Below are positions 1,105 to 33,963 of a DNA stretch of 41,421 bases, piece after piece. The stretch lies in the IMG/VR virus record IMGVR_UViG_3300043932_000066, one strand, 5' to 3'. The stretch is from a virus. The translations under genes and the position numbers were made by a program. Under the pieces are notes generated by a model. It saw nothing but the letters and a program-made list of their open reading frames with translations, ran no database searches and had not been told where the DNA came from. Positions within the stretch are counted from its first letter, which is position 1, and the number at the start of each line of letters is the position of its first letter.

Positions 1105-1310
1105 GATCCGCCCCCGTATCGGACGTGCTGCTCTAGGGCGGTCACGTCTGTCACGAGGTCTACGAGGCCGCCGTAGTCCACGGGCCGCCACACGTGGCGC
1201 GATCCGGTCACGCGGTCCACGAGTTCCACGCGCGGCTGACCGGACTCCACCGTGACATGCAGGTCGAGCGACCCGGCACCCGGGATCGTGCGAGAGAAGG
1301 CGGCGGTCAT
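1101..1310 (-). CDS. Hypothetical protein (69 aa)
   Basis: MTAAFSRTIPGAGSLDLHVTVESGQPRVELVDRV.... ATGA overlap with the methyltransferase stop. Normal composition. Confidence 0.6.
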   Translation of the reverse strand: MTAAFSRTIPGAGSLDLHVTVESGQPRVELVDRVTGSRHVWRPVDYGGLVDLVTDVTALEQHVRYGGGS

Positions 1311-2035
1311 GCTGACCACTCTCCGAAGTCGAGGACACCCTGAGACAGGCGGCGTGCGGCGATCTCGCAATAGCGTTCCTCCAGCTCCACGCCGACCGCG
1401 TGGCGTCCGAGGCGCTTCGCGGCGACCAGCGTGCTGCCCGACCCCGCGAACGGGTCCGCGACCACCCACTCGGGCTTGCACTTCTTGAGGAGCCACTGCA
1501 TGAGGCCGATAGGCTTCGCGGTGGGGTGTCCGCCACGTTGAGCGTTGAGACGGAGACACGGGTTCGGGTCGACGAGGATGTTGCTGTCGACTCTTCCGTT
1601 GGTGAACTCGCTGGCCGTGTCTGCGAGCGCGTAAATCTCCTCGTCCTGCGTGATCCACGGCGATTTCTCAGCGCTCGCAAGAAGAGTTCCTGGAGCTGTC
1701 TTGACCCACAGGAGTCGCATGACGGTGCGCTCCGGTCGCGGCTTTCGCCAGTGACCGAACACTAGGGCTGGTCTCTCTCCCCATGCGCTGAGTGCCCAAT
1801 CGCGTGCGGACACGTCCTTGTCTGACTTGATTCTCTGCGTCCCCTGTTCGGCCATGAGGCGTGAGTTCGCGAGCCGATCCGCGCGAGTGACGCCAGTCAT
1901 GCGCCCCGCCTTATAATCAATCCCATATGGCGGGTCTGTGACGAGCACGTCCGCCCGCACCCACCATTCGGGGTGCTCTAGGCAGTCCCCGTGGTAGAGG
2001 GTGACGTGCTCGTCCTGGTAGTAGGGGTCGCTCAC
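1307..2035 (-). CDS. Orphan DNA methyltransferase (N6-adenine/N4-cytosine type, DPPY motif)
   Basis: DPPYGIDYK catalytic motif followed by a C-terminal ADPFAGSGSTLVAAKRLGR AdoMet motif. GTG start at 2035 (GTGA overlap, AAGGGGGCGGGG upstream). No restriction partner nearby. Confidence 0.85.
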   Translation of the reverse strand: MSDPYYQDEHVTLYHGDCLEHPEWWVRADVLVTDPPYGIDYKAGRMTGVTRADRLANSRLMAEQGTQRIKSDKDVSARDWALSAWGERPALVFGHWRKPRPERTVMRLLWVKTAPGTLLASAEKSPWITQDEEIYALADTASEFTNGRVDSNILVDPNPCLRLNAQRGGHPTAKPIGLMQWLLKKCKPEWVVADPFAGSGSTLVAAKRLGRHAVGVELEERYCEIAARRLSQGVLDFGEWSA

Positions 2036-2340
2036 TTCCCCGCCCCCTTGGTTGTCGCGTCCTGCCAGTAGGCGGGGTCGAAACTGATCCACACGTGCCG
2101 GTGTGACTTGGAGTCTGCGGCGGTGCGGGTTTGGATGCGGTAGGGGCGGGGGCAGGCCTTGCTGAGGGCGGCTGTGCGGGCGACGGGCAGGACGAGTGGG
2201 CGCCCCGCGTCGTCGGCCAACTGGAACGCGTGGCCGGGGTTACTGCGCATGGTGCGCAGCATGTCCGTGTCCACGATGTCGGTCCACAGGCTTCCCGCCC
2301 GCGTGACCTTCGCCGGCACCTTCCGGTCGAGCAGCTTCAC
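2032..2340 (-). CDS. Hypothetical protein (102 aa)
   Basis: GTG at 2340 follows GGAGGAGG with a GTGA overlap. Reads VKLLDRKVPAKVTRAGSLWTDIVDTDMLRTMRSNPGHAF.... Confidence 0.6.
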   Translation of the reverse strand: MKLLDRKVPAKVTRAGSLWTDIVDTDMLRTMRSNPGHAFQLADDAGRPLVLPVARTAALSKACPRPYRIQTRTAADSKSHRHVWISFDPAYWQDATTKGAGK

Positions 2341-7249: not shown

Positions 7250-7641
7250 TACTCTTCCTCCATGTCGGCGGCGAGCCGGTTGGCCCTTTCGCGGAGTCGG
7301 TTGATCTGGTCGCGCTTGCGAGCGTTCCTGCGTCGCGCGTTCGCCACGGTGACGGGATGCCAGTCGACGTCGGTCTCGACGAGGATCGCGGCGCCGCCCC
7401 ACCGGTTGATGAGGTCGACCCTGTGCTGAGCGCTGGAGCGGGACCGGTAGATGGGCCGGTCGGATGGGATGAAGAACGGGTGGGGCTCGCCCCACACCTG
7501 CTGGCAGTGCTCGTCCCAGCCCTTCGGCGCGCCCTCAGCCTCGGTCTTCGGGGCCGCGGGGACGGTCTCCGTCCAGTCCTCCAGGACCTCGACGTTGGCG
7601 TCCGGGAAGTCGGCGACGTCCATGGCCTTGTAGAGCCTCAT
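7249..7641 (-). CDS. Hypothetical protein (130 aa)
   Basis: MRLYKAMDVADFPDANVEVLEDWTETVPAAPKTE.... GAAGGAGATCGCAGC precedes the ATG. ATGA overlap with the antirepressor stop. Confidence 0.7.
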   Translation of the reverse strand: MRLYKAMDVADFPDANVEVLEDWTETVPAAPKTEAEGAPKGWDEHCQQVWGEPHPFFIPSDRPIYRSRSSAQHRVDLINRWGGAAILVETDVDWHPVTVANARRRNARKRDQINRLRERANRLAADMEEE

Positions 7642-8450
7642 GCTGCGATCTCCTTCGTGAGGGTGAGGGTCCCGTGTTCGAGGGCGTAGGCGGTGAGCCC
7701 GTCCCACAGGCGGGCCTCGCCCTTGGGTGTGAGGCGGGGCGTGACCTTGCGGACGGTCCCGTGGTGGGCGGTGTCGATGAGGGTCTCGGCGACGGTCGCC
7801 CACCCGGCTTCCACGGCTTGGCTGGTGGGCTGGTTGTGGCGGATGGTGTTGCCGCGGATGAGGATCCCGAGGCGTCCGGCGTGGTCCCAGACGTCGTCGT
7901 GCTTGACGGGCATGCCGGGGAAGCGGCTTGCGGCGTAGGCCTTGAAGCGGTTCGCGACGTCGCCGATGAGCTGGAGGCCTTCGCTGGAGCGGTAGAAGTC
8001 GCGCTCGGCGGCCGGCCCCTCCAGTGCGAGGGCCCGGGCTTCGGCGGCCTGCGCTCGGTTGAGCGCGGCCTTCCCCGCGTCGAGGATCGCGGAGATCCCG
8101 TCCAGGGTCGTGATGTCCATCGACGGGGCGCCGTAGCTGCCGGTCCGGCGGATGCTGGGGAGGACGTCGGTCGTCAGCCATCGGCGGAAGGGCTTCGCCT
8201 TCGGGCTGTCGCTGCGGATGATGACCTCGTACATGCCCGGCTCGTTGACGACGTTCATGGAGCGGGTCTGCCCTCCGGACCTGATGTCCGCCTGACGGAC
8301 GTCAGCTTCTTCGAGTCGGGCGGCGACGTTGCGGGTGTTGGTGATGTCGAGGACGGCGCACAGGTCGTTGAGCACGGCCCACGGCTCACCCTCTATGTCG
8401 AGCACCCGAACTGCGGTACCCTCGTAGGTGAAGGGGATCAGGTCTTGCAT
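7638..8450 (-). CDS. Prophage antirepressor (Bro-N domain + KilAC domain)
   Basis: Bro-N-like: LIPFTYEGTAVRVLDIEGEPWAVLNDLCAVLDI...KPFRRWLTTDVLPSIRRTG. The C-terminal half is KilAC-like. An alternative ATG lies at 8465. Confidence 0.85.
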   Translation of the reverse strand: MQDLIPFTYEGTAVRVLDIEGEPWAVLNDLCAVLDITNTRNVAARLEEADVRQADIRSGGQTRSMNVVNEPGMYEVIIRSDSPKAKPFRRWLTTDVLPSIRRTGSYGAPSMDITTLDGISAILDAGKAALNRAQAAEARALALEGPAAERDFYRSSEGLQLIGDVANRFKAYAASRFPGMPVKHDDVWDHAGRLGILIRGNTIRHNQPTSQAVEAGWATVAETLIDTAHHGTVRKVTPRLTPKGEARLWDGLTAYALEHGTLTLTKEIAA

Positions 8451-8517
8451 AATGCTTCCTTTCATCGCTCCCGTCGGCTGGTCCCGGCGGGAGTCTCTTG
8501 TTGGGTAGGGTTCGGGC

Positions 8518-9075
8518 ATGGACTGGACTGTTGTGGCATCGTGGGCCGGTGCCGTCGTCTCGCTGCTCTCGCTCGCCGCGACACTGTGGTTGCAGTGGTG
8601 GCGGCGCCCCACTGTCGACTGGATCTGCGACGGGTGGATGAACAAGCGGGGCGCCATCGGGAGCAGAGTCCGCGAGGGTGGGTTCCCCGTGTACCTGACG
8701 CTGGCCAACTGCGGGGACGGCGCCGCCTTCGGTGTGGAGACGCTGCGATGCCACGGGGGAGCGAAGGAGCCGTACCGCGTTTTCGAGGCTGGCGTGGTAC
8801 CGGCGGGCGGGCAGATCGAGGTGCGGCTCATGGTTGAACTCGCTGATCTGGAGTCCGCGTGGGTAGAGGTGGACTACACATCCAGCCCGACTCTTCGCTC
8901 CACACGCAGACACTCACGCCGCTTTTACCCGGCAGTAGAACTCGCTGACCATGCTCGACGGAGGCCCGGCTACGATCCGACACAGGTCGGTCCCCAGTGG
9001 GGAGAAACGTCTCGGATCCCGGGTCCCATCGCCACGCGGCAAGAGGACGATCACGGTCCTGGCGACGCTCAGTGA
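8518..9075 (+). CDS. Plus-strand membrane-anchored protein (185 aa), candidate lysogen-expressed moron
   Basis: N-terminal TM segment WTVVASWAGAVVSLLSLAATLWLQWW. GC3 is about 88% over 8518-8820 by my count and falls where it overlaps the convergent gene. Confidence 0.6.
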   Translation: MDWTVVASWAGAVVSLLSLAATLWLQWWRRPTVDWICDGWMNKRGAIGSRVREGGFPVYLTLANCGDGAAFGVETLRCHGGAKEPYRVFEAGVVPAGGQIEVRLMVELADLESAWVEVDYTSSPTLRSTRRHSRRFYPAVELADHARRRPGYDPTQVGPQWGETSRIPGPIATRQEDDHGPGDAQ

Positions 9076-10478: not shown

Positions 10479-11696
10479 TCACGCTTCGATCTGGGGGAGC
10501 GCCTGAGACAAGGCAAGCGTCATGGCGGCGGCGATGGCCTCCCCTCGGCCTGGGAGGAGATCGGCGTACAGGTCGCTCGTCGTCTGGATGGACTCATGCC
10601 CGAGCTGGTACTGCACGTCCTGCAATGTCGCGCCCGCGCTGATCATCCACGAGGCCGCGGTGTGGCGACAGTCATGGATGCGCGGCCACTTCCCCAACGT
10701 CGCGCCTCGCTGGGCCGGGCGGATCCCGTCCCACATTGACCCCGAGGCGGGGTGGTGGTCGCGGCCCTTGTCTGGCCAGCCTGGCTTCCCGTTTGCCAGT
10801 CGGAGGGCGGGGGCCCACACGTCCGGGTAGAACGTCGAGTGCTTGATCCGCCCCCCGCGCGGCGTCGTGAACAGCAGCTCCTGAGGATCCCGAGCCTTCT
10901 GGTCGCCGCAGTAAGGGCATAGCTGGGCGGGCGTCACGATCGTGCGGCGCCCGCGTCGAGTCTTCGGCGGCCCGACCTCCCACCCGCCAGGCACCTTCTT
11001 CCACGCCTTCGACACGCGCAGGGTCCCAGCACTCTCGTCGTAGTCGGCGACCGTGAGGGCCGTCGCCTCAGAGAATCGCATGCCCGTGCCAAGCAGCGCG
11101 GTGACGAACGAGCGATACGGGGGCGGAATACAGCCGAGAAGGATCGCCGCCTCGCTCTGCGTCAGGCTCACGCGCTCCTCGCGGACATCGTCCTTGCGGA
11201 GGTGCCGGCCTGTCTCCTCGCAGGGGTTGCGAGCGAGCCCCGTCTCCGGATCCCGGGCCGCATGGTCGAGGACTGACGAGAGGAAGCCGTGCTTGTTCCG
11301 GATGGTCTTCGCGCTCGCTCCTTGCCTCTCCAGGCCGCGGACCCACGCTTGGACGCGCGCCTCGGTGATCATGTCCACGGGGATTCGTCCGAGCGAGCGG
11401 AGGTCGGTGCGGATGATCGCGTGGTAGCGGTGGCGTGTGCCCTCTGTGATGCCGGTGCGCCGGTCGACGTCGGCCGTCGCGTAGTCGACGAGCAGCGGAG
11501 ATTTCGGGCTGCCGTCTTCGTTGGCGGCGAGGATCTCTAGGGCAGCTTCGAGGCCGAGCTGATCTACGGAGCGTAGCCAGTCGTCGCGGCCCTTGGCGGT
11601 GGGGAAGGTGGCGGATCGCTGGCGTCCGTGGTCGCGGTAGAGGGCTTGCCAGGCGATTGTGCCGTCAGCACGGACGCGCTCTCTTTTTGACGCCAT
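10479..11696 (-). CDS. int: Tyrosine integrase
   Basis: C-terminal HDCRHTAASWMISAGATLQDVQYQLGHESIQTTSDLYADL (HxxR...H...Y). Likely ATG at 11696 after GGGAGG. The ORF track extends it to 11729. Confidence 0.9.
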   Translation of the reverse strand: MASKRERVRADGTIAWQALYRDHGRQRSATFPTAKGRDDWLRSVDQLGLEAALEILAANEDGSPKSPLLVDYATADVDRRTGITEGTRHRYHAIIRTDLRSLGRIPVDMITEARVQAWVRGLERQGASAKTIRNKHGFLSSVLDHAARDPETGLARNPCEETGRHLRKDDVREERVSLTQSEAAILLGCIPPPYRSFVTALLGTGMRFSEATALTVADYDESAGTLRVSKAWKKVPGGWEVGPPKTRRGRRTIVTPAQLCPYCGDQKARDPQELLFTTPRGGRIKHSTFYPDVWAPALRLANGKPGWPDKGRDHHPASGSMWDGIRPAQRGATLGKWPRIHDCRHTAASWMISAGATLQDVQYQLGHESIQTTSDLYADLLPGRGEAIAAAMTLALSQALPQIEA

Positions 11697-11713
11697 TCCG
11701 ACCGACCTCCCGT

Positions 11714-11768
11714 GTTGACATGTCAACAATTAGACCCCGTCTAGACACTTGTCAACGCCTCTCAACGC
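11714..11768. repeat. attP left arm: clustered (G/C)TCAAC(A/G)C motifs (candidate arm-type integrase sites)
   Basis: Palindrome TTGACATGTCAA (11715-11726). GTCAACGC (11751-11758). CTCAACGC (11761-11768). An inverted GTTGAC lies at 11816-11821. Confidence 0.45.
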
Positions 11769-12947: not shown

Positions 12948-13313
12948 ATGCAGATCACCGACGAGACCCGCACCTACCTCGACGGTCACGGCACCGAGGA
13001 GCAGCAGGGGCTTTTCCAGCGGGCGGCGGAGCGCATCCGTGAGATCTACCGGGAGCAGGAGTCCGACGCCCCGGAGGACGAGGCGGGCATGACGGCCGAG
13101 CAGCTGGTCGGGGCCGCCCAGTACGCGCTCGGAGATGGCGCGCTGGAGGATCTGGGCGAGGAGGCGCGGGCTGCCCAGATGAGGTACCTGGCGGCACTGG
13201 ACCGCCTGGCGGGTGCGATGGTCGCCGCCGACCTCCAGGGCGTGCCGATCGTCCAGATCGCTGAGCGCGCCCACGTCACCCGGCCCACCGTCTACAAGAG
13301 GCTGGGGAGGTGA
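12948..13313 (+). CDS. Protein with a C-terminal HTH (121 aa)
   Basis: The C-terminus VPIVQIAERAHVTRPTVYKRLGR is a resolvase/Hin-type HTH. The N-terminal part is acidic. Confidence 0.65.
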   Translation: MQITDETRTYLDGHGTEEQQGLFQRAAERIREIYREQESDAPEDEAGMTAEQLVGAAQYALGDGALEDLGEEARAAQMRYLAALDRLAGAMVAADLQGVPIVQIAERAHVTRPTVYKRLGR

Positions 13314-14020
13314 CCACGTGGGACGCGGCGCGATGCGCCCGGGAGATCGGGGTGCTGGCCGCGACATGGAGCACCTACGCCTCCCGAGGTCTGGTGCCCG
13401 CCTCGGTGGCGCGCGGACTGTGGGACGCGGACGAGGTCCGGGCATGGGCATACCCCCGCATCCCGGAGCCGGACCCCACCACTCCTGATAGCACCTACGG
13501 GGCCCGCGATGGTCATGGCCGGTACGGGATCCTCGACCAGGCTGAGGACGGTCGCCTCATCTGCCACGAGTGCGGCAGAGGTGTGTGGCACCTCGCCAGC
13601 CACCTCCACACCAGCCACCAGATCGACACCCACACCTACCGACAGTCACACGGCCTGCCCCTCACGGCGCCGCTCGTCTCCACTCCCGTGCGGGGGCGCA
13701 TGGGTGAGTCATGGAGTGGGCACGCCTCCCAGCATCTCGCGCGCCTGGCCGCCACCCGAGACCCCCAGCGCGCCACGCAGGCCAGCCATGGCGTGCAGCG
13801 CTCAGCAGCCACGCGCCACACCATGCAGCACCCCAGGGGCCGCGCGCTCACCGACGCGGAGGCCCGCCTCCTGGACGCAGCACCCGACCTGGACACCTGG
13901 GCACGCATCGCCCGTGGCCTCCTCGACGATGGGGCGAGTGGCGCCACCATCAGCGCGGCCACCGGGATCCGCGAGGGCACAGTGCACGCCAGAGTCGCCC
14001 GCCTCGCACCCCGCACATGA
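13310..14020 (+). CDS. Multi-domain regulator with a Ros/MucR-type zinc finger
   Basis: LICHECGRGVWHLASHLHTSHQIDTHTYRQSHGLPLTAPLVS aligns by eye to Ros [42 protein letters not shown]. N-terminal excisionase-like HTH and C-terminal HTH (TISAATGIREGTVHARVARL). Confidence 0.7.
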   Translation: MTTWDAARCAREIGVLAATWSTYASRGLVPASVARGLWDADEVRAWAYPRIPEPDPTTPDSTYGARDGHGRYGILDQAEDGRLICHECGRGVWHLASHLHTSHQIDTHTYRQSHGLPLTAPLVSTPVRGRMGESWSGHASQHLARLAATRDPQRATQASHGVQRSAATRHTMQHPRGRALTDAEARLLDAAPDLDTWARIARGLLDDGASGATISAATGIREGTVHARVARLAPRT

Positions 14021-18721: not shown

Positions 18722-19804
18722 TCACCAGTTGAGTTCCTGCACGTCCACGCGCATCCGCGACGACGGATCTGAGAGCGACACGCTGTAGGCGGTGATGCGG
18801 CCCACGATCGTCTCGTCATCGGTGACGGCGGCGATCACGTCCCCCACCTCCAGGCGCGGGTCCATCGCGATCTCCAGGCTGCGGGTCCGAGTCGTGAGGG
18901 CGAGATTGCGCAGGCGGGTCTGCATCGCGGCTGTCACCGCAGTCTGCCCGTCCGCGCTGTTCAGCTCGAAACGGCTCGCGACCAGCCCGTATTCGCTGAT
19001 GCTGTAGGGCGGTTCGGTCGCATCCCCTTGAGCCACCCACTGCGTCTCCACGTCGCCCTCAGTCTTGCTGCCGACGACGACGATCCGGTTCGCCCGACGC
19101 TCCACCGCCTGCCGAGGGGCCGATAGGAGCAGGTCCCTCGCCGTGTAGGTCGCCACCGGAGCCCGCCCATCCCGCTGAGCCCACACGTGCAGGTACCCGT
19201 CCGGCTTCACGCCGTACTCCAGCCCGTAGGACTCGCATAGGTCGCGCACCGCCTCAGCCCGATCCGTCCCCCACTCGAACGTCCTGGGAATCCCCCGATC
19301 CACCGGGTCATCGAGGACCACGGGGAGACTGTGCCCCTCACCGACATTGCACAAGCGGCGCAGCTCAGACAGCAGGGACGCGCCGGCGGGAGGCGAGCTC
19401 GGCCACGTCATCGGCGCCTCCACCAGGGTTTGCATGAGATCCAGGGCCGTCACCTGCACCGTGTCGCCATCCCCAGGCTCCCACGTGTCGATCTGGAACC
19501 ATCCCAGCTCCACCTCGCTGGGCGTCCCGTCCACATCGAGGAGCGCAGTCGCGTGCGCTCTCTGCCCGAAATTGCTCAGCGGCGAGAGCGGGTGATCCAC
19601 TGCGCGCACCGTGCCCCCCGCAGAATCCGTCCACTCCATGGGCGCCGTGAACTCGAGTTTCCCCGGCACGACGCGGTCGGCAGTCACGTCCAGCACCACG
19701 TCGCGCACCGGCACGTCCACGGCCAAAACCTGCCGTCCGCGCGTGACCTCCACGCGCGCACCCACAGCCACAGAGCCGCGCAGATCAGCAGGACCCGGAC
19801 GCAT
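18722..19804 (-). CDS. Minor tail / baseplate hub-like protein (360 aa)
   Basis: GAGGTGATCGC precedes the ATG at 19804. Assigned by position between the distal tail protein and the fibre. Normal composition. Confidence 0.7.
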   Translation of the reverse strand: MRPGPADLRGSVAVGARVEVTRGRQVLAVDVPVRDVVLDVTADRVVPGKLEFTAPMEWTDSAGGTVRAVDHPLSPLSNFGQRAHATALLDVDGTPSEVELGWFQIDTWEPGDGDTVQVTALDLMQTLVEAPMTWPSSPPAGASLLSELRRLCNVGEGHSLPVVLDDPVDRGIPRTFEWGTDRAEAVRDLCESYGLEYGVKPDGYLHVWAQRDGRAPVATYTARDLLLSAPRQAVERRANRIVVVGSKTEGDVETQWVAQGDATEPPYSISEYGLVASRFELNSADGQTAVTAAMQTRLRNLALTTRTRSLEIAMDPRLEVGDVIAAVTDDETIVGRITAYSVSLSDPSSRMRVDVQELNW

Positions 19805-19857
19805 GCGATCACCTCAAATCGTCAGATGTGGGATGGCTGTTGGCGTAGGTTGAGGCC

Positions 19858-20364
19858 ATGCCAGAGGGAAGACCCGCAATCCCGCGCGCGCTCGCCCGCG
19901 CAGTCAAAGAAGAAGCCGGACACCGATGCGCGATTCCCACGTGCAAAGCAACATCGGCCCTTGAAATCGCCCACATCAGACCGTGGGCAGAGGTTCACGA
20001 ACACACCTTCGACAACCTCATCTACCTGTGCGCCATCTGCCATACCAGATACGACCGTGGAGAGATCGATCGGCAATCCATGCTTGCGTACAAGCAAAAT
20101 CTCAGCGTCCTCAACAGTCGCTACAGCGACTTCGAGCGACGCATCCTCCAGACCCTCCAAGGCAGAGGTCCCGGGAGCGCGATCCCGCTGCAGAGCGTTG
20201 ATCCGATGCTCTTCCTGTATCTCGTCGAAGATGGGCTGCTCGTAGAAGTCTTCTCCCAGGGTGGACAGCTTCTCATCAACGGGATCAACCCCACGCGCCA
20301 TTGGACACTGACAGAGCAGGGATGGGACTTCGTCAACCGCTGGTTCTCGGGTCAGACCCTGTGA
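19858..20364 (+). CDS. HNH-nuclease domain protein with a C-terminal winged-helix-like domain (reverse-oriented moron)
   Basis: HRCAIPTC...LEIAHIRPW...FDNLIYLCAICHTRYDRGEI is a beta-beta-alpha-Me/HNH pattern. 4 AGA codons and lower GC3 than its neighbours. Confidence 0.75.
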   Translation: MPEGRPAIPRALARAVKEEAGHRCAIPTCKATSALEIAHIRPWAEVHEHTFDNLIYLCAICHTRYDRGEIDRQSMLAYKQNLSVLNSRYSDFERRILQTLQGRGPGSAIPLQSVDPMLFLYLVEDGLLVEVFSQGGQLLINGINPTRHWTLTEQGWDFVNRWFSGQTL

Positions 20365-20509
20365 AGCGGAGCTCGTCGCGCACGAGAGAGGCCGCAGAGT
20401 CATAGACCCCAGCCACTGATCCCACCCAGCCCGGGGGTGTCGCGCGGGACTCGTCCACCAACAGCTCGATGACTTCTCGCAGGGTCTCCTGCCGAACGTC
20501 CGCGTTCAT
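20333..20509 (-). CDS. Small ORF (58 aa) coupled to the distal tail protein gene
   Basis: ATGA overlap at 20506-20509. Reads MNADVRQETLREVIELLVDESRATPPGWVGSVAGVYDSAASLVRDELRF. Its 3' end overlaps the HNH gene by 32 bp. Confidence 0.4.
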   Translation of the reverse strand: MNADVRQETLREVIELLVDESRATPPGWVGSVAGVYDSAASLVRDELRFTGSDPRTSG

Positions 20510-21189
20510 GACGGCATCCCAGCCACGATGCGGCACAGGTCCAGCATCGAGTAGTCCTGCCAGCCCTCGCCGAGGGCCTGATACTCGCCCCACGTCACCA
20601 CAGGGCACGCGCCAGACCGCGACACGGCAGACCGCGACTCAGTCCACGACACGTCGAACAACAGCTCGCCCCGCCGACCGATCCGCGACCTCGACACGCT
20701 GTCCACCGTCACGCAGCGCAGGGACACGCCAGGCGTCGACTGGTCCGGCGCAATGATGATCGGCGCGTGAGAGCGCAGGACCCGCCACACGTCAGCCTCC
20801 CGCGCCGGATCAGTGAGCACGACCTGCCCGACACCACTCACCAGGGGATCGCTCAGTGACCAGCGCTCGACACGATCATTGAACCGGCTGACCGAGCTTG
20901 ACCAAGCGAGCTTGTCCCCGTTGTTCGCGTAGATCAGGCCTGGAATCCCGCGCCCCCGAGCATTCGTGAGGAACGCCTGCCCCAGCCCGCCAGCCGCCCG
21001 CACCAGCGTGATCAACTCGGAGCCGACCCGGTACTCGGTCGCCACGCCGGGCTCAGCCAGCGCATCCGACAGGAGCACCGGAGCAGTCCCATCAGCCAGC
21101 ACACGGCCACCCACGCTCACACGCACAGGATCCGAACTGTAAATACTCGGCAATCCCGTATGCGACGCCACCCAACCGACCACCGACAT
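20506..21189 (-). CDS. Distal tail protein (Dit-like) / minor tail protein
   Basis: 227 aa immediately downstream of the TMP (TGATG junction). Called by position; no motif recognised. Confidence 0.65.
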   Translation of the reverse strand: MSVVGWVASHTGLPSIYSSDPVRVSVGGRVLADGTAPVLLSDALAEPGVATEYRVGSELITLVRAAGGLGQAFLTNARGRGIPGLIYANNGDKLAWSSSVSRFNDRVERWSLSDPLVSGVGQVVLTDPAREADVWRVLRSHAPIIIAPDQSTPGVSLRCVTVDSVSRSRIGRRGELLFDVSWTESRSAVSRSGACPVVTWGEYQALGEGWQDYSMLDLCRIVAGMPS

Positions 21190-24103: not shown

Positions 24104-24757
24104 ATGGCCGCGCTGGGCCGTAGAATTGGGCGCATGGCCCATCGACTCACTGCCGCGCTGGCGGCCGCCCTGCTCGCCGTCGGACTCTCCGCGTGTGGGG
24201 GAGGAGGCGATCAGTCGGCCGATGTGGCCGCGGTCCCAGACGTCGTCGGCATGACTGCCTCTGACGCCCAGACCGAGCTTCTGAGCGCCGGATACACGGC
24301 GACCGTCACCGACGAGGACGGGAAGATCAGCGTCGACTCGACGCTGACTGTGCTCAGCCAGGACCCGGCCGCCGGCGCTGAGGTGAAGCCGTACAGTGGC
24401 ACGCCCGTGAAGCTCACCGTCCCCACGACCGACAAACCCACTCCGACGCCGGCCGCGACCGAGACGGCGGAGCCTGCGCCGTCTCGGACCGAGCAGGCGA
24501 CGACCGGAGGACTCACGGAGACCTATGCCATGACCGCCTGCGACCAGTACGGGGAGCAGCAGTTCCCCTACGGGTACGACGCGCACTGGGTCCTCGGAGT
24601 GCTCGCCAGCGAATACCAGCCGGACACGGACGAGTGGTACTTCAAGGTCGAGGCCGACGTCACCAACGAGTACAACGCCGAGCAGACCGTCAACGTGGAG
24701 TGCTACGTGACCGGCACCGAAGATGCGCCCGTCGTGAACGACTTCCTCGCCTACTGA
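24104..24757 (+). CDS. Secreted lipoprotein with a PASTA domain (reverse-oriented moron)
   Basis: Signal peptide plus lipobox ...LLAVGLSAC. PASTA-like VPDVVGMTASDAQTELLSAGYTATV...SQDPAAGAEVKPYSGTPVKLTV. An alternative ATG lies at 24134. High GC3. Confidence 0.75.
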   Translation: MAALGRRIGRMAHRLTAALAAALLAVGLSACGGGGDQSADVAAVPDVVGMTASDAQTELLSAGYTATVTDEDGKISVDSTLTVLSQDPAAGAEVKPYSGTPVKLTVPTTDKPTPTPAATETAEPAPSRTEQATTGGLTETYAMTACDQYGEQQFPYGYDAHWVLGVLASEYQPDTDEWYFKVEADVTNEYNAEQTVNVECYVTGTEDAPVVNDFLAY

Positions 24758-33618: not shown

Positions 33619-33963
33619 TCACCATTCGATCAACGTTGTCGTTGACTTGAATGGTCTGACGACGCGATGCTGACGCTTGTCGCTGAGCGAGCTGTTGCAG
33701 TGCTGGCACATGACGTTTGGTTGACCGTCAACTGTGCGCAGATTGTCCATGTCGTCAGCCTCAGCGAGTCGACCAAGGCGACGCATCGTCGCGTAGGGAA
33801 CGCGATGGTCGACCGTCACGCGCCACGGTGAGCGTGATCCTCGGGTGTAGTCCATGGGGTGCCCGCAGCGTGGGCACCGGGTGATGCCCAGGGCCTGAGC
33901 CTCGGCTTTGATGCGGGCCGCGTTGCGAAGGTACTTCGTTGTGCCTGTCCTGCTGGTGGACAT
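33619..33963 (-). CDS. HNH endonuclease (terminase-associated)
   Basis: CPRCGHPMD...VDHRVPY...DNLRTV...CQHCNSSLSDK. Located just upstream of terS/terL. Confidence 0.85.
   Translation of the reverse strand: MSTSRTGTTKYLRNAARIKAEAQALGITRCPRCGHPMDYTRGSRSPWRVTVDHRVPYATMRRLGRLAEADDMDNLRTVDGQPNVMCQHCNSSLSDKRQHRVVRPFKSTTTLIEW

What the first reader, a model, noticed from the sequence alone, without database searches (positions are those of the whole stretch)
19858..20364. HNH nuclease plus winged-helix-like ORF embedded antisense in the tail-tip block, with foreign-looking codon usage
Seen in sequence: a 168-aa plus-strand ORF lies between the Dit-like gene (with its coupled 58-aa ORF) and the hub-like gene. 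The N-terminal half has a full beta-beta-alpha-Me pattern (HRCAIPTC, EIAHIRPW, FDNLIYLCAICHTRYDRG). The C-terminal ~90 aa (FERRILQTLQGRGPGSAIPLQSVDPMLFLYLVEDGLLVEV...) looks like a winged helix. It has 4 AGA Arg codons and visibly more A/T-ending codons than the flanking tail genes, which suggests acquisition from elsewhere. Its 3' end overlaps the convergent 58-aa ORF (20333..20509) by 32 bp. The phage already carries a separate terminase-associated HNH (33619..33963), so this one is not needed for packaging. Inference: it could be a moron acting as a nuclease-based defence or exclusion effector, or a decayed homing endonuclease.
Basis: partly seen in the sequence, partly recalled or inferred. 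Interest (0 to 1): 0.65.

Follow-up and report, generated by a model that had tools for sequence, protein, structure and literature searches.

The report
Mobile HNH nuclease moron in prophage
A small, intact DNA-cutting enzyme gene with its own promoter sits backwards between two tail genes of a temperate actinobacterial phage. Related phages have it, lack it or swap it, so it is either a weapon in phage-versus-phage conflict or a selfish homing gene; both are familiar kinds of phage add-on, though this protein family is unstudied.

Summary
ORF 19858..20364(+) is a real gene: it passes Pfam HNH, has about 940 full-length homologues and shows dN/dS of about 0.1. The rival antisense 193-aa frame has stops in relatives and is not coding. 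The protein is a zinc-finger HNH nuclease joined to a C-terminal MarR-like winged helix (AF2 pLDDT 92.5).

It lies in a ~540-bp insert, a leaderless promoter (TAGGTT, 6 nt before the ATG) plus the ORF, between a conserved 58-aa tail-operon gene and the hub gene. Relatives have the site empty (orf56 directly followed by hub), filled, or filled with other cargo. The HNH+orf58 block is 98-100% identical in phages whose flanking Dit genes are about 50% identical. Two near-identical phages differ mainly in the winged-helix half of the gene.

The family (~165-180 aa) occurs patchily in many phyla. It is found next to integrases, transposases and defence genes. In prophages it lies inside virion-gene operons, usually antisense. 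In high-GC loci 30 of 55 copies carry the same leaderless -10 signature.

The best reading is a prophage-expressed nuclease moron used in inter-phage conflict (0.45). The main rival is a free-standing homing endonuclease (0.35). It is not decayed. I score it a new member of a known kind, of moderate interest.

The parts
19858..20364 (+). Gene for a 168-aa HNH-winged-helix nuclease (stop codon included)
   Evidence: ORF. Pfam HNH and HNH_2 above their cut-offs. 941 homologues, mostly full length. dN/dS 0.10 in this frame only. AF2 model pLDDT 92.5.
19921..20055 (+). HNH beta-beta-alpha-metal core with a Cys4 zinc site (residues 22-66: C24, C29, H39, N53, C58, C61, H62)
   Evidence: Residues invariant or nearly invariant in 93 homologues. 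Foldseek and HMM matches to the HNH domains of Cap5, Cas9/IscB, EcoKMcrA, ScoMcrA, TagI and PtuB.
20119..20361 (+). C-terminal winged-helix domain (residues 88-168). Its beta1 loop and wing are the variable surfaces.
   Evidence: Domain-only AF2 model pLDDT 84.9. Foldseek matches to MarR-family, PadR, HxlR and eS10 winged helices, TM 0.5-0.59. Among four phage alleles, variable positions are 8/12 in the beta1 loop and 14/24 in the wing, against 6/66 in the N-arm plus HNH core.
19846..19851 (+). -10-like hexamer TAGGTT, ending 6 nt before the A of the ATG; candidate promoter of a leaderless mRNA
   Evidence: GGCGTAGGTTG is invariant in the window and five related phage loci, while the 5 nt after it (the SD-like GAGG) vary. 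TANNNT at spacing 6-7 occurs in 30 of 55 high-GC family loci, against 0.2 per offset as background. In the window only this gene and the other antisense gene (24134) have it. The sigma-70 consensus scan found nothing.
19805..20347 (.). Segment absent from empty-site relatives (about 541-543 bp: promoter plus nearly the whole HNH ORF). It replaces about 28 bp of the empty site.
   Evidence: L105 against L109: 93% identity in orf58 ends 15 nt before the orf58 stop and resumes at the hub ATG, so 541 bp stand against 28 bp. Junction alignment. Homology between the window and L019 breaks at 19800 and 20513.
20333..20509 (-). 58-aa tail-operon ORF, start overlapping the stop of the 227-aa gene (ATGA). 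A conserved small gene that also occurs without the HNH.
   Evidence: dN/dS 0.07-0.10 in this frame. Only 7 homologue clusters, all in this phage group. Present as orf56 directly upstream of hub in L109-L113. Co-transferred with the HNH.
20333..20364 (.). 32-bp convergent overlap. The last HNH codons and its stop lie antisense on the orf58 3' end, and orf58 has a new C-terminus (RTSG* instead of RL*).
18722..19804 (-). Flank: 360-aa hub/Tal-like tail protein. Its SD (GAGGTG, 19810..19815 on the minus strand) lies in the 53-bp divergent spacer.
   Evidence: PHROG 1887 tail protein, 1.2e-24. Conserved spacer motif.
20506..21189 (-). Flank: 227-aa post-tape-measure protein (Dit-like by position only)
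   Evidence: Gene order. No family hit.

Best explanation
Shown. The gene is an intact, selectively maintained, compact nuclease. It has an N-terminal zinc-finger HNH domain, a long linker helix and a C-terminal MarR-like winged helix. It sits in a ~540-bp autonomous unit (a -10 box for a leaderless mRNA plus the ORF). That unit is inserted in reverse orientation between a small tail-operon gene (orf58) and the hub gene of a temperate actinobacterial siphovirus, which also encodes an integrase and an antirepressor. The unit, usually together with orf58, is exchanged among related phages by recombination at the conserved Dit-end and hub-start sequences.

Inferred. Because it has its own promoter and runs against the late operon, it is made independently of virion genes, including from the prophage. 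The winged helix tethers the enzyme to a DNA feature, either a site or a modification. The HNH domain, probably acting as a dimer, cuts nearby. The substrate is incoming DNA of other, probably related, phages. Cut genomes are lost, which gives exclusion and benefits both prophage and host. Alternatively they are repaired from the prophage copy, which would also spread the cassette. Late-operon transcription through the gene would silence it during the phage's own lytic growth.
For: Real and constrained:
- dN/dS is 0.10-0.19 against about 0.5 for the flanking tail genes, at equal synonymous divergence (dS 0.8-1.1). So it has been kept by selection for as long as its flanks.

Autonomous expression:
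- TAGGTT at -6 is invariant in the window and five related phage loci.
- The same TANNNT signature at 6-7 nt is found in 30 of 55 high-GC family loci.
- In the window only the two antisense genes of the tail block have it, and neither has an SD.

Moron anatomy:
- Empty sites exist.
- Composition is foreign.
- A second leaderless antisense moron, a PASTA lipoprotein, lies in the same tail block.

Temperate setting:
- The phage has an integrase and a Bro/ANT antirepressor.
- In IMG/VR the family is found mostly in isolate prophages, inside virion and packaging modules.
- It is antisense to most neighbours in 20 of 27 loci. The same arrangement occurs in Streptomyces prophages.

Conflict flavour:
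- Cellular copies have no conserved partner and no regular methylase.
- They sit beside type I R-M, DISARM DrmA/DrmD, Mokosh MkoA, BrxH, EcoRV, SoFic, KAP NTPase, integrases and transposases.
- The HNH core is closest to McrA, ScoMcrA, TagI, Cap5, PtuB and IscB.
- Variation among phage alleles is concentrated on winged-helix surfaces.
- Two near-identical phages differ in just that part of the gene.

Precedent: winged-helix-nuclease fusions act as solitary type IV restriction enzymes (PMC11037411).
Against: - There are no expression data and no phenotype.
- PADLOC matches only the HNH core (best 7.5e-5).
- Enrichment of defence neighbours is suggestive only: at most about 8 of 69 loci, from crude gene calls and with no control set.
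- At this junction the alternative cargo in relatives is tail-strand ORFs, not other defence genes, unlike classical defence hot spots.
- No terminator was found.
- The helix that would read DNA is almost entirely hydrophobic, so the winged helix may not read DNA bases.
- No match to the DpnI/HhiV4I type of modification-sensing winged helix was found.
- The cassette's recent moves, with co-transferred flanks, fit homing equally well.
Confidence: 0.45

Rival explanations
1. Free-standing homing endonuclease gene (selfish). The enzyme recognises a site at or near the uninterrupted orf56|hub junction of HNH-less relatives, or of other alleles, during co-infection or superinfection. It cuts there, and repair from the HNH-bearing genome copies the gene and some flanking DNA. 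Any exclusion effect is incidental.
For: - There is a precise presence/absence polymorphism at one intergenic site, with a 28-bp target loss and a new 3' end for the neighbouring gene. Mycobacteriophage free-standing HNH genes are described in just this way (PMC3706429).
- The HNH+orf58 block is 98-100% identical in phages whose Dit flank is 38-66% identical.
- A ~1-kb replacement tract is centred on the gene in otherwise identical phages.
- Family members sit in several different slots of conserved virion and packaging operons.
- The nuclease-plus-C-terminal-DNA-binding layout and the size resemble I-HmuI (my own knowledge).
- Some relatives combine the N-terminal ~100 residues with other C-terminal domains.
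Against: - Outside the four close phage clusters, the family is mostly in bacterial chromosomes and prophages. It is almost absent from sequenced phages: INPHARED gives one weak hit, and IMG/VR gives 27 of 2.9 million contigs.
- Both domains are conserved at about 50% identity across phyla, although insertion sites differ. That is odd for site-specific homing.
- Between the window and the L005/L008 lineages the gene is as old as its flanks and shows no decay.
- It has reverse orientation with a promoter type shared by chromosomal copies.
- No near-isogenic filled/empty pair was found.
Confidence: 0.35
2. Restriction half of a split R-M pair. The HNH enzyme cuts a specific unmethylated site, and the phage's own N6/N4 DNA methyltransferase (1307..2092) protects phage and host DNA.
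For: The window encodes a DNA methyltransferase (PF01555, 68 bits; PHROG 67).
Against: - The methylase is 18 kb away in the early region.
- It belongs to a family common in phages (at least 172 viral contigs). None of the 80 best methylase contigs listed is among the HNH-bearing IMG/VR contigs or L019's contig.
- Cellular homologues have no regular methylase neighbour.
Confidence: 0.05
3. A nuclease serving the phage's own lytic cycle, such as recombination, host DNA breakdown or help with packaging, that happens to lie in the tail block.
For: HNH enzymes often assist terminases, and a few family members lie next to large terminase genes.
Against: - Close relatives do without it: L019 and L109-L113.
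- The window already has an HNH beside its terminase.
- The gene runs antisense to the late operon.
- Most family members are not in phages.
Confidence: 0.07
4. An inactive or decaying remnant, or only a DNA-binding regulator that no longer cuts.
For: The composition is foreign, and the gene's 3' end was rebuilt from target sequence.
Against: - All catalytic and zinc ligands are conserved.
- dN/dS is 0.10.
- Both domains are modelled with high confidence.
Confidence: 0.03

Closest known systems
Free-standing HNH homing endonuclease genes of actinobacteriophages (e.g. Cluster J mycobacteriophages, PMC3706429)
   Same: A solitary HNH gene inserted precisely between two conserved genes. It is present in some relatives and absent in others. 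Insertion can delete a few tens of bp and give the neighbour a new 3' end. There is no adjacent methylase.
   Different: Only the HNH core is alike in sequence. This gene is reversed relative to the operon, has a leaderless promoter, belongs to a family that is mainly chromosomal or prophage-borne, and has a winged-helix C-terminus. Homing has not been shown for either.
Morons of temperate phages (independent promoter-gene units between late genes, e.g. lambda bor/lom and HK97 gp15; my own knowledge)
   Same: It is inserted between genes that are adjacent in relatives, has its own promoter and deviant base composition, and sits in a temperate phage. A second such unit (the PASTA lipoprotein) lies nearby.
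   Different: No terminator was detected. The cargo is a nuclease rather than a membrane or exclusion protein. Expression in lysogens is untested.
EcoKMcrA, ScoMcrA and TagI: solitary HNH type IV restriction endonucleases (McrA is carried by the e14 prophage; my own knowledge)
   Same: An HNH core with a zinc site, closest by HMM and fold (6ghc 7.9e-4; 5zmm rmsd 2.7-2.9 A over about 80 residues at 23-26% identity). It is a single polypeptide of reader domain plus nuclease with no methylase partner.
   Different: The domain order is reversed (nuclease first). It is about half the size. The reader domain is unrelated (MarR-like winged helix rather than the McrA N-terminal domain, SBD or SRA). 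Dependence on modification is unknown.
Winged-helix fusion endonucleases (wH-HNH, PUA-wH-HNH such as HhiV4I, and DpnI): 6mA-dependent type IV enzymes (PMC11037411; PMC10101028 by title and abstract only)
   Same: A winged helix combined with an HNH nuclease in one chain. Methylases are rare nearby. One member (HhiV4I) is encoded by a virus.
   Different: Those enzymes are wH-then-HNH and 224-496 aa; this one is HNH-then-wH and 165-180 aa. No sequence or fold match to the DpnI-type winged helix was found. The putative recognition helix here is hydrophobic.
I-HmuI (phage SPO1 intron-encoded HNH nicking endonuclease; my own knowledge, cited as ref. 47 in PMC3706429)
   Same: A similar size (my recollection is about 170-175 aa), with an HNH catalytic module followed by helices and a C-terminal helix-turn-helix DNA-binding module.
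   Different: It is not among the top 50 Foldseek PDB matches. I-HmuI is intron-encoded and lacks the Cys4 zinc site (my own knowledge).
HNH effector modules of defence systems (Cap5 of CBASS, PtuB of Septu/retron Ec78)
   Same: Best overall Foldseek matches for the nuclease half (8fmh 6.4e-3; 9nnh). Weak PADLOC PtuB hits.
   Different: Those need a sensor partner (SAVED or PtuA). This gene has no conserved partner.

Membership tests
HNH (beta-beta-alpha-metal) nuclease superfamily | Profile match above the curated threshold | tested here: met
   PF01844 scores 34.2 bits against 21.4, and PF13391 scores 28.7 against 21.
HNH (beta-beta-alpha-metal) nuclease superfamily | Catalytic His, structural Asn and metal-binding His present, plus the Cys4 zinc site of the McrA-like branch | tested here: met
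   H39, N53, H62, C24, C29 and C58 are invariant and C61 is at least 90% conserved in 93 homologues. The model shows beta-beta-alpha elements E35-39, E54-58 and H59-66.
Winged-helix (wHTH) fold | Helix / strand / helix / beta-hairpin wing topology matching solved winged helices | tested here: met
   The domain model (pLDDT 84.9) matches ZitR, YusO, AdcR, MarR, HpaR, HucR and eS10 with TM 0.5-0.59 and probability up to 1.0. All E-values are 6e-3 or worse. The HTH is compact: one helix of the canonical three-helix core is replaced by a strand and loop.
Moron | Lies between two genes that are adjacent in related phages | tested here: met
   orf56 is followed by hub after 20-35 bp in L109-L113.
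Moron | Own promoter | tested here: met
   By motif only: conserved TAGGTT 6 nt before the ATG, a family-wide signature. No transcript data.
Moron | Own terminator | tested here: not met
   No terminator-like site on either strand in 19500..20800. The 3' end overlaps orf58.
Moron | Expressed from the prophage | not testable with these tools
   Needs RNA-seq or 5'-RACE of a lysogen.
Free-standing homing endonuclease | Nuclease gene with presence/absence polymorphism at a fixed site between conserved genes | tested here: met
Free-standing homing endonuclease | Evidence of recent lateral movement with co-converted flanks | tested here: inconclusive
   An identical cassette sits in divergent backbones, and a ~1-kb replacement tract sits in identical backbones. 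The window and L005 copies are as old as their flanks. Ordinary recombination at conserved gene ends explains the same pattern.
Free-standing homing endonuclease | Cleaves the gene-less allele near the insertion site | not testable with these tools
   Needs an enzyme assay on empty-site DNA.
Type IV (modification-dependent) restriction endonuclease | Single chain with a nuclease and a separate DNA-reader domain, and no cognate methylase | tested here: met
   Architecture. No recurrent neighbour, and no methylase among the 25 commonest neighbour families.
Type IV (modification-dependent) restriction endonuclease | Reader domain related to a known modification sensor (DpnI-type wH, SRA, SBD, McrA N-terminal domain) | tested here: not met
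   The family profile finds no PDB relative for the C-terminal domain. Fold matches are to MarR-type regulators and eS10 only.
Type IV (modification-dependent) restriction endonuclease | Cuts only modified DNA | not testable with these tools
   Needs in vitro or in vivo assays.
Known anti-phage defence systems (PADLOC-DB v2) | Full-length match to a system component | tested here: not met
   Best hits are PDC-M68A 7.5e-5 and PtuB about 5e-3, covering residues 10-70 only.
Terminase-associated HNH (HK97 gp74 type) | Adjacent to the terminase and portal genes and co-oriented with them | tested here: not met
   The gene lies in the tail block on the opposite strand. A different HNH (33619..33963) occupies the terminase-side position.

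The most novel reading that the evidence does not exclude
The 165-180-aa HNH-winged-helix proteins are an undescribed single-gene conflict system. Actinobacterial prophages carry them as leaderless, antisense morons inside their virion operons. The prophage-made nuclease cuts superinfecting related phages at a site read by the fast-changing winged-helix surfaces. This excludes the rival, and repair from the prophage copy spreads the gene into the rival. In that case homing and defence would be one mechanism.
Probability: 0.25. Interest if true: 0.65.

Novelty: new member of a known kind. Interest (0 to 1): 0.42.

Why it matters
If the nuclease is made by the prophage and cuts incoming phages, it adds a very small single-gene nuclease to the list of prophage-borne exclusion tools of Actinobacteria, a group in which few such tools are known. 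It would also give a testable case in which homing and defence may be the same act.

The material for that test already exists in nature. There are filled, empty and otherwise-filled junctions. The same cassette occurs in different phage backbones. Two near-identical phages differ almost only in the winged-helix half of the gene.

If it is only a homing endonuclease, it is an ordinary part of the phage mobilome. In that case the main practical value is for annotation: the plus-strand frame is the gene, the antisense 193-aa ORF is not, and the 58-aa ORF is real.

Tried and rejected
- Antisense ORF 19822..20403 and the other plus-strand frame as the true gene: rejected, because they have stops in relatives and dN/dS above 1.
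- Close relatives among sequenced phages: megablast found none, and tblastn found one weak hit to the HNH core.
- A defence-system assignment: PADLOC and NCBIfam matched only the HNH core.
- A conserved partner gene in 83 cellular loci: none was found. The one recurrent neighbourhood turned out to be a Streptomyces prophage structural module.
- orf58 as a family-wide partner or immunity gene: rejected. It has only 7 homologue clusters, all in this phage group, and it also occurs without the HNH.
- Sigma-70 promoter and intrinsic terminator scans: nothing found. The promoter case rests on the actinobacterial leaderless TANNNT signature.
- Target-site duplication at the insert ends: none. A 6-nt TCTGAC at both ends in the window is already present as two nearby near-copies in the empty site and is absent from L105, so I dropped it.
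- A link between the phage methylase and the HNH: none.
- A match of the C-terminal domain to a DpnI-type or other modification sensor: none.
- Higher identity of the cassette than its flanks (window against L005) as proof of recent transfer: rejected, because synonymous divergence equals that of the flanks, so the difference reflects stronger constraint. Recent transfer is shown instead by L008, L010 and L011.
- Pfam on the alternative cargo at the junction: no hits except a weak CBM_4_9.
- One context look-up found no record, and another returned only a short contig.
Full report
**1. The observation**

The window reads as a temperate actinobacterial siphovirus.
- Virion genes lie on the minus strand from about 33.3 kb down to 14.1 kb. 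There is an integrase at 10479..11729 and a Bro/ANT antirepressor at 7638..8831.
- The major capsid protein is 74% identical to that of Propionibacterium freudenreichii phages. The hub-like protein is 44% identical to one in Actinomyces phage LC001.

- The plus-strand ORF 19858..20364 (168 aa) lies between the 360-aa tail protein 18722..19804(-) and a 58-aa ORF 20333..20509(-). That ORF's start overlaps the stop of the 227-aa gene following the tape measure.
- Composition is deviant. GC is 58.8% against 64-68%, GC3 0.70 against 0.80-0.85, and CAI 0.53 against about 0.70.

**2. Which frame is the gene**

At 66% GC both strands carry long ORFs, so length alone proves nothing. Three results settle the frame.
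- Pfam HNH and HNH_2 pass their curated cut-offs.
- 941 proteins match, most over their full length and most 160-185 aa long.
- Against the 83%-identical copy in contig L005, differences fall 22/10/76 by codon position, giving dN/dS 0.10. The 193-aa antisense frame and the other plus-strand frame acquire stop codons and have dN/dS above 1.

The 58-aa ORF is also real, with dN/dS 0.07-0.10 in its own frame.

**3. The protein**

AlphaFold2 with 93 homologues gives pLDDT 92.5.

Residues 1-66 form an N-terminal arm and a beta-beta-alpha-metal core.
- C24, C29, C58, H39, N53 and H62 are invariant across the family, and C61 is nearly so.
- By HMM and by fold the core is nearest to the HNH modules of IscB/Cas9, EcoKMcrA, ScoMcrA, TagI, Cap5 and PtuB.

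A long helix (residues 72-88) leads to residues 88-168.
- Modelled alone (pLDDT 84.9), this domain matches MarR-family regulators, PadR/HxlR proteins and ribosomal protein eS10 (TM 0.5-0.59), all of which I know as winged-helix folds.
- Its sequence carries what I recognise as the usual wHTH marks (LxxLxxDGLL, then LTxxGxxF).
- The fit is not strong: no E-value is below 1e-3.
- One helix of the canonical HTH is reduced to a strand and loop, and the would-be recognition helix is hydrophobic.
- No sequence relative of this domain exists in the PDB, and there is no match to DpnI-type sensors.

**4. The insert**

Related contigs place the same gene at the same spot: 227-aa gene, orf58, HNH on the opposite strand, then hub.

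Other relatives show the alternatives.
- In L109-L113 an orf56, 74-80% identical to orf58, is followed after 20-35 bp by the hub gene, with no HNH.
- In L024 and L020-22 the two tail genes abut or nearly so.
- The window's closest relative, L019 (90% and 88% nucleotide identity in the flanks), has about 1.95 kb of tail-strand ORFs instead. Homology with the window breaks at 19800 and 20513, which are the gene ends.

Filled against empty (L105 against L109):
- Identity is 93% in orf58 and stops 15 nt before its stop codon. It resumes at the hub ATG.
- So 541 bp replace 28 bp.

The insert is therefore little more than a promoter and the ORF. The last four or five HNH codons and its stop are read from the antisense of the pre-existing orf56 end, and orf58 gained a new C-terminus. 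I found no target duplication. Mycobacteriophage free-standing HNH genes have been described with just such junctions, including a 35-bp target loss that remade a neighbour's 3' end (PMC3706429).

**5. Expression signals**

- The general sigma-70 and terminator scan found nothing.
- The 11 nt GGCGTAGGTTG are invariant in the window and five related phage loci, while the following five bases, including the SD-like GAGG, vary.
- TAGGTT ends 6 nt before the A of the ATG. To my knowledge this is the geometry of actinobacterial leaderless transcripts.
- The signature runs through the family. In 55 non-redundant high-GC loci, TANNNT ends 6 nt (18 loci) or 7 nt (12 loci) before the start codon. The background is about 0.2 loci per offset.
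- Of 28 called genes in 20 kb of the window, only two have this signature and lack an SD. One is this gene. The other is the second plus-strand gene in the tail block, a PASTA-domain lipoprotein starting at 24134. TANNNT occurs at 0.0011 per position in the window.

Independent transcription is therefore well supported by motif. When it happens is not known.

**6. The family elsewhere**

- A scan of one genome per species found 348 loci across Actinomycetota, Proteobacteria, Chloroflexota, Planctomycetota, Cyanobacteria, Acidobacteriota and others.
- A search of all representatives found 305 clusters (at 50% identity) with E no greater than 1e-30. Some of these join the N-terminal ~100 residues to other C-terminal domains.
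- No partner gene recurs.
- Direct neighbours in 69 loci include five integrases, several transposases, HsdS, EcoRV, DrmA, DrmD, MkoA, BrxH, SoFic and a PLD-helicase. Named examples lie inside a type I R-M operon, beside a KAP NTPase, and beside an integrative conjugative element.
- The one recurrent neighbourhood, in about a dozen Streptomyces genomes, is a prophage structural module. There the gene lies antisense between a tail-terminator gene and a head-completion-like gene.
- In IMG/VR, 27 contigs carry it, and many derive from isolate genomes. Neighbours within two genes are major tail, tape measure, connector, neck, terminase, portal, sheath, endolysin and integrase genes. In 20 of 27 contigs most neighbours are on the other strand.
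- Sequenced phages in INPHARED essentially lack the family.

Two caveats apply. The gene calls in these loci are my own crude ones, and no matched control was run, so the defence-neighbour signal is only suggestive.

**7. Evolutionary dynamics**

Between the window and the L005/L008 lineages, synonymous divergence is the same for hub (0.87-0.91), HNH (0.89-1.12), orf58 (0.83-1.07) and Dit (1.05). dN/dS is 0.10-0.19 for the HNH against about 0.5 for the tail genes. Here the gene is as old as its flanks and more constrained than they are. It is not decaying.

Elsewhere the locus turns over.
- L008, L010 and L011 share an HNH+orf58 block that is 98-100% identical. Their Dit flanks are 38-66% identical and their hub flanks 66-94%. 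Breakpoints fall at the Dit stop and the hub 5' end.
- Conversely, L005 and L008 are near-identical phages (Dit dS 0.00, hub dS 0.05). They carry a ~1-kb patch of divergence centred on the gene. Identity falls to 46-80% across the part encoding the linker helix and winged helix (from about residue 61).
- Among the four phage alleles, the N-arm and HNH core vary at 6 of 66 positions, the beta1 loop at 8 of 12 and the wing at 14 of 24.

**8. Interpretation**

Some things are established. This is an intact nuclease gene, an autonomous promoter-plus-ORF unit, inserted and exchanged at a tail-gene junction that is a cargo hot spot. It is kept by selection, and its variation is focused on the surfaces of the second domain.

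The enzyme's target and the time at which it is made are not established.

I favour a prophage-expressed nuclease used against incoming phage DNA (0.45). The reasons are:
- the temperate setting;
- the reverse orientation;
- the promoter type, shared with a neighbouring lipoprotein moron and with chromosomal copies;
- the company the gene keeps in cellular genomes;
- the kinship of its nuclease core to solitary type IV enzymes and defence effectors;
- the long-term constraint.

Solitary winged-helix-nuclease fusions acting as type IV enzymes are a published precedent. They have the opposite domain order and a different winged helix (PMC11037411).

The main rival is a free-standing homing endonuclease (0.35). 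It explains the precise polymorphism, the recent moves with co-transferred flanks and the many slots in conserved virion operons. It fits less well with the family's mostly non-phage distribution and with the conservation of the second domain across different insertion sites.

The two readings are not exclusive. A prophage-made enzyme that cuts related superinfecting phages would both exclude them and spread itself.

Minor rivals are a split R-M pair with the phage methylase, a lytic-cycle nuclease, and a dead remnant. Each is contradicted by specific results.

**9. Verdict**

In kind this is familiar: a solitary HNH gene added to a phage genome. It belongs to an uncharacterised family, and nature offers a clean set of variants for experiments. 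I score it a new member of a known kind, with interest 0.42.

Noticed in passing
window 24134..24757 (+): A second antisense gene lies inside the tail block, between the tape measure and the chaperone-like genes. It encodes 207 aa with a lipoprotein signal and lipobox (…AVGLSACG) and a PASTA domain. TAGAAT ends 7 nt before the ATG and there is no SD. It looks like a leaderless moron and a candidate superinfection-exclusion lipoprotein.
   Followed up: partly
window 1307..2092 (-): An orphan N6/N4 DNA methyltransferase (PF01555, 68 bits; PHROG 67) from a family common in phages. None of the 80 best contigs listed for it carries the HNH.
   Followed up: partly
window 19805..20512 and loci L016-L024, L105-L113: The junction between the post-tape-measure gene and the hub gene is a cargo hot spot in this phage group. 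It can be empty, hold orf56 only, hold orf58+HNH, hold 1.9-2.2 kb of uncharacterised tail-strand ORFs (one with a weak CBM_4_9 hit), or follow a Dit-like gene with a large internal insertion.
   Followed up: partly
window 20506..20560 (-); L016 5890-5946; L018 5822-6001: The C-terminal motif W(Q/E)xYSxLDLxRxIAGMP(S/A) of the Dit-like protein lies at the C-terminus of the last ORF before the hub gene in L016 and L018, and at the Dit-like protein's own C-terminus in the window. In L018 it sits on a separate 59-aa ORF. With the conserved hub start it may act as a recombination linker or a docking peptide.
   Followed up: no
window 33619..33963 (-): The 114-aa ORF beside the terminase is recognised as an HNH endonuclease only by PHROGs (1e-12). 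Pfam gives no hit at E no greater than 1e-3.
   Followed up: partly
L065/L068 (Streptomyces sp. NPDC048611); L071/L072 (Kitasatospora sp. NBC_01560): One Streptomyces contig holds two copies, 39 kb apart, of a prophage-like structural block carrying a family member. A Kitasatospora chromosome has one copy near each end (within about 36 kb of each terminus).
   Followed up: no
L005 5251-5600 against L008 (same region): Two otherwise near-identical phage contigs differ by a ~1-kb patch centred on the winged-helix half of the HNH gene. This is a natural allele swap that could be used to map specificity.
   Followed up: partly
window 12948..14020 (+): A plus-strand block beside the integrase includes a ROS/MucR-family zinc-finger regulator (13310..14020), possibly the lysogeny regulator. 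A ROS/MucR gene also appears in the related contig L105.
   Followed up: no
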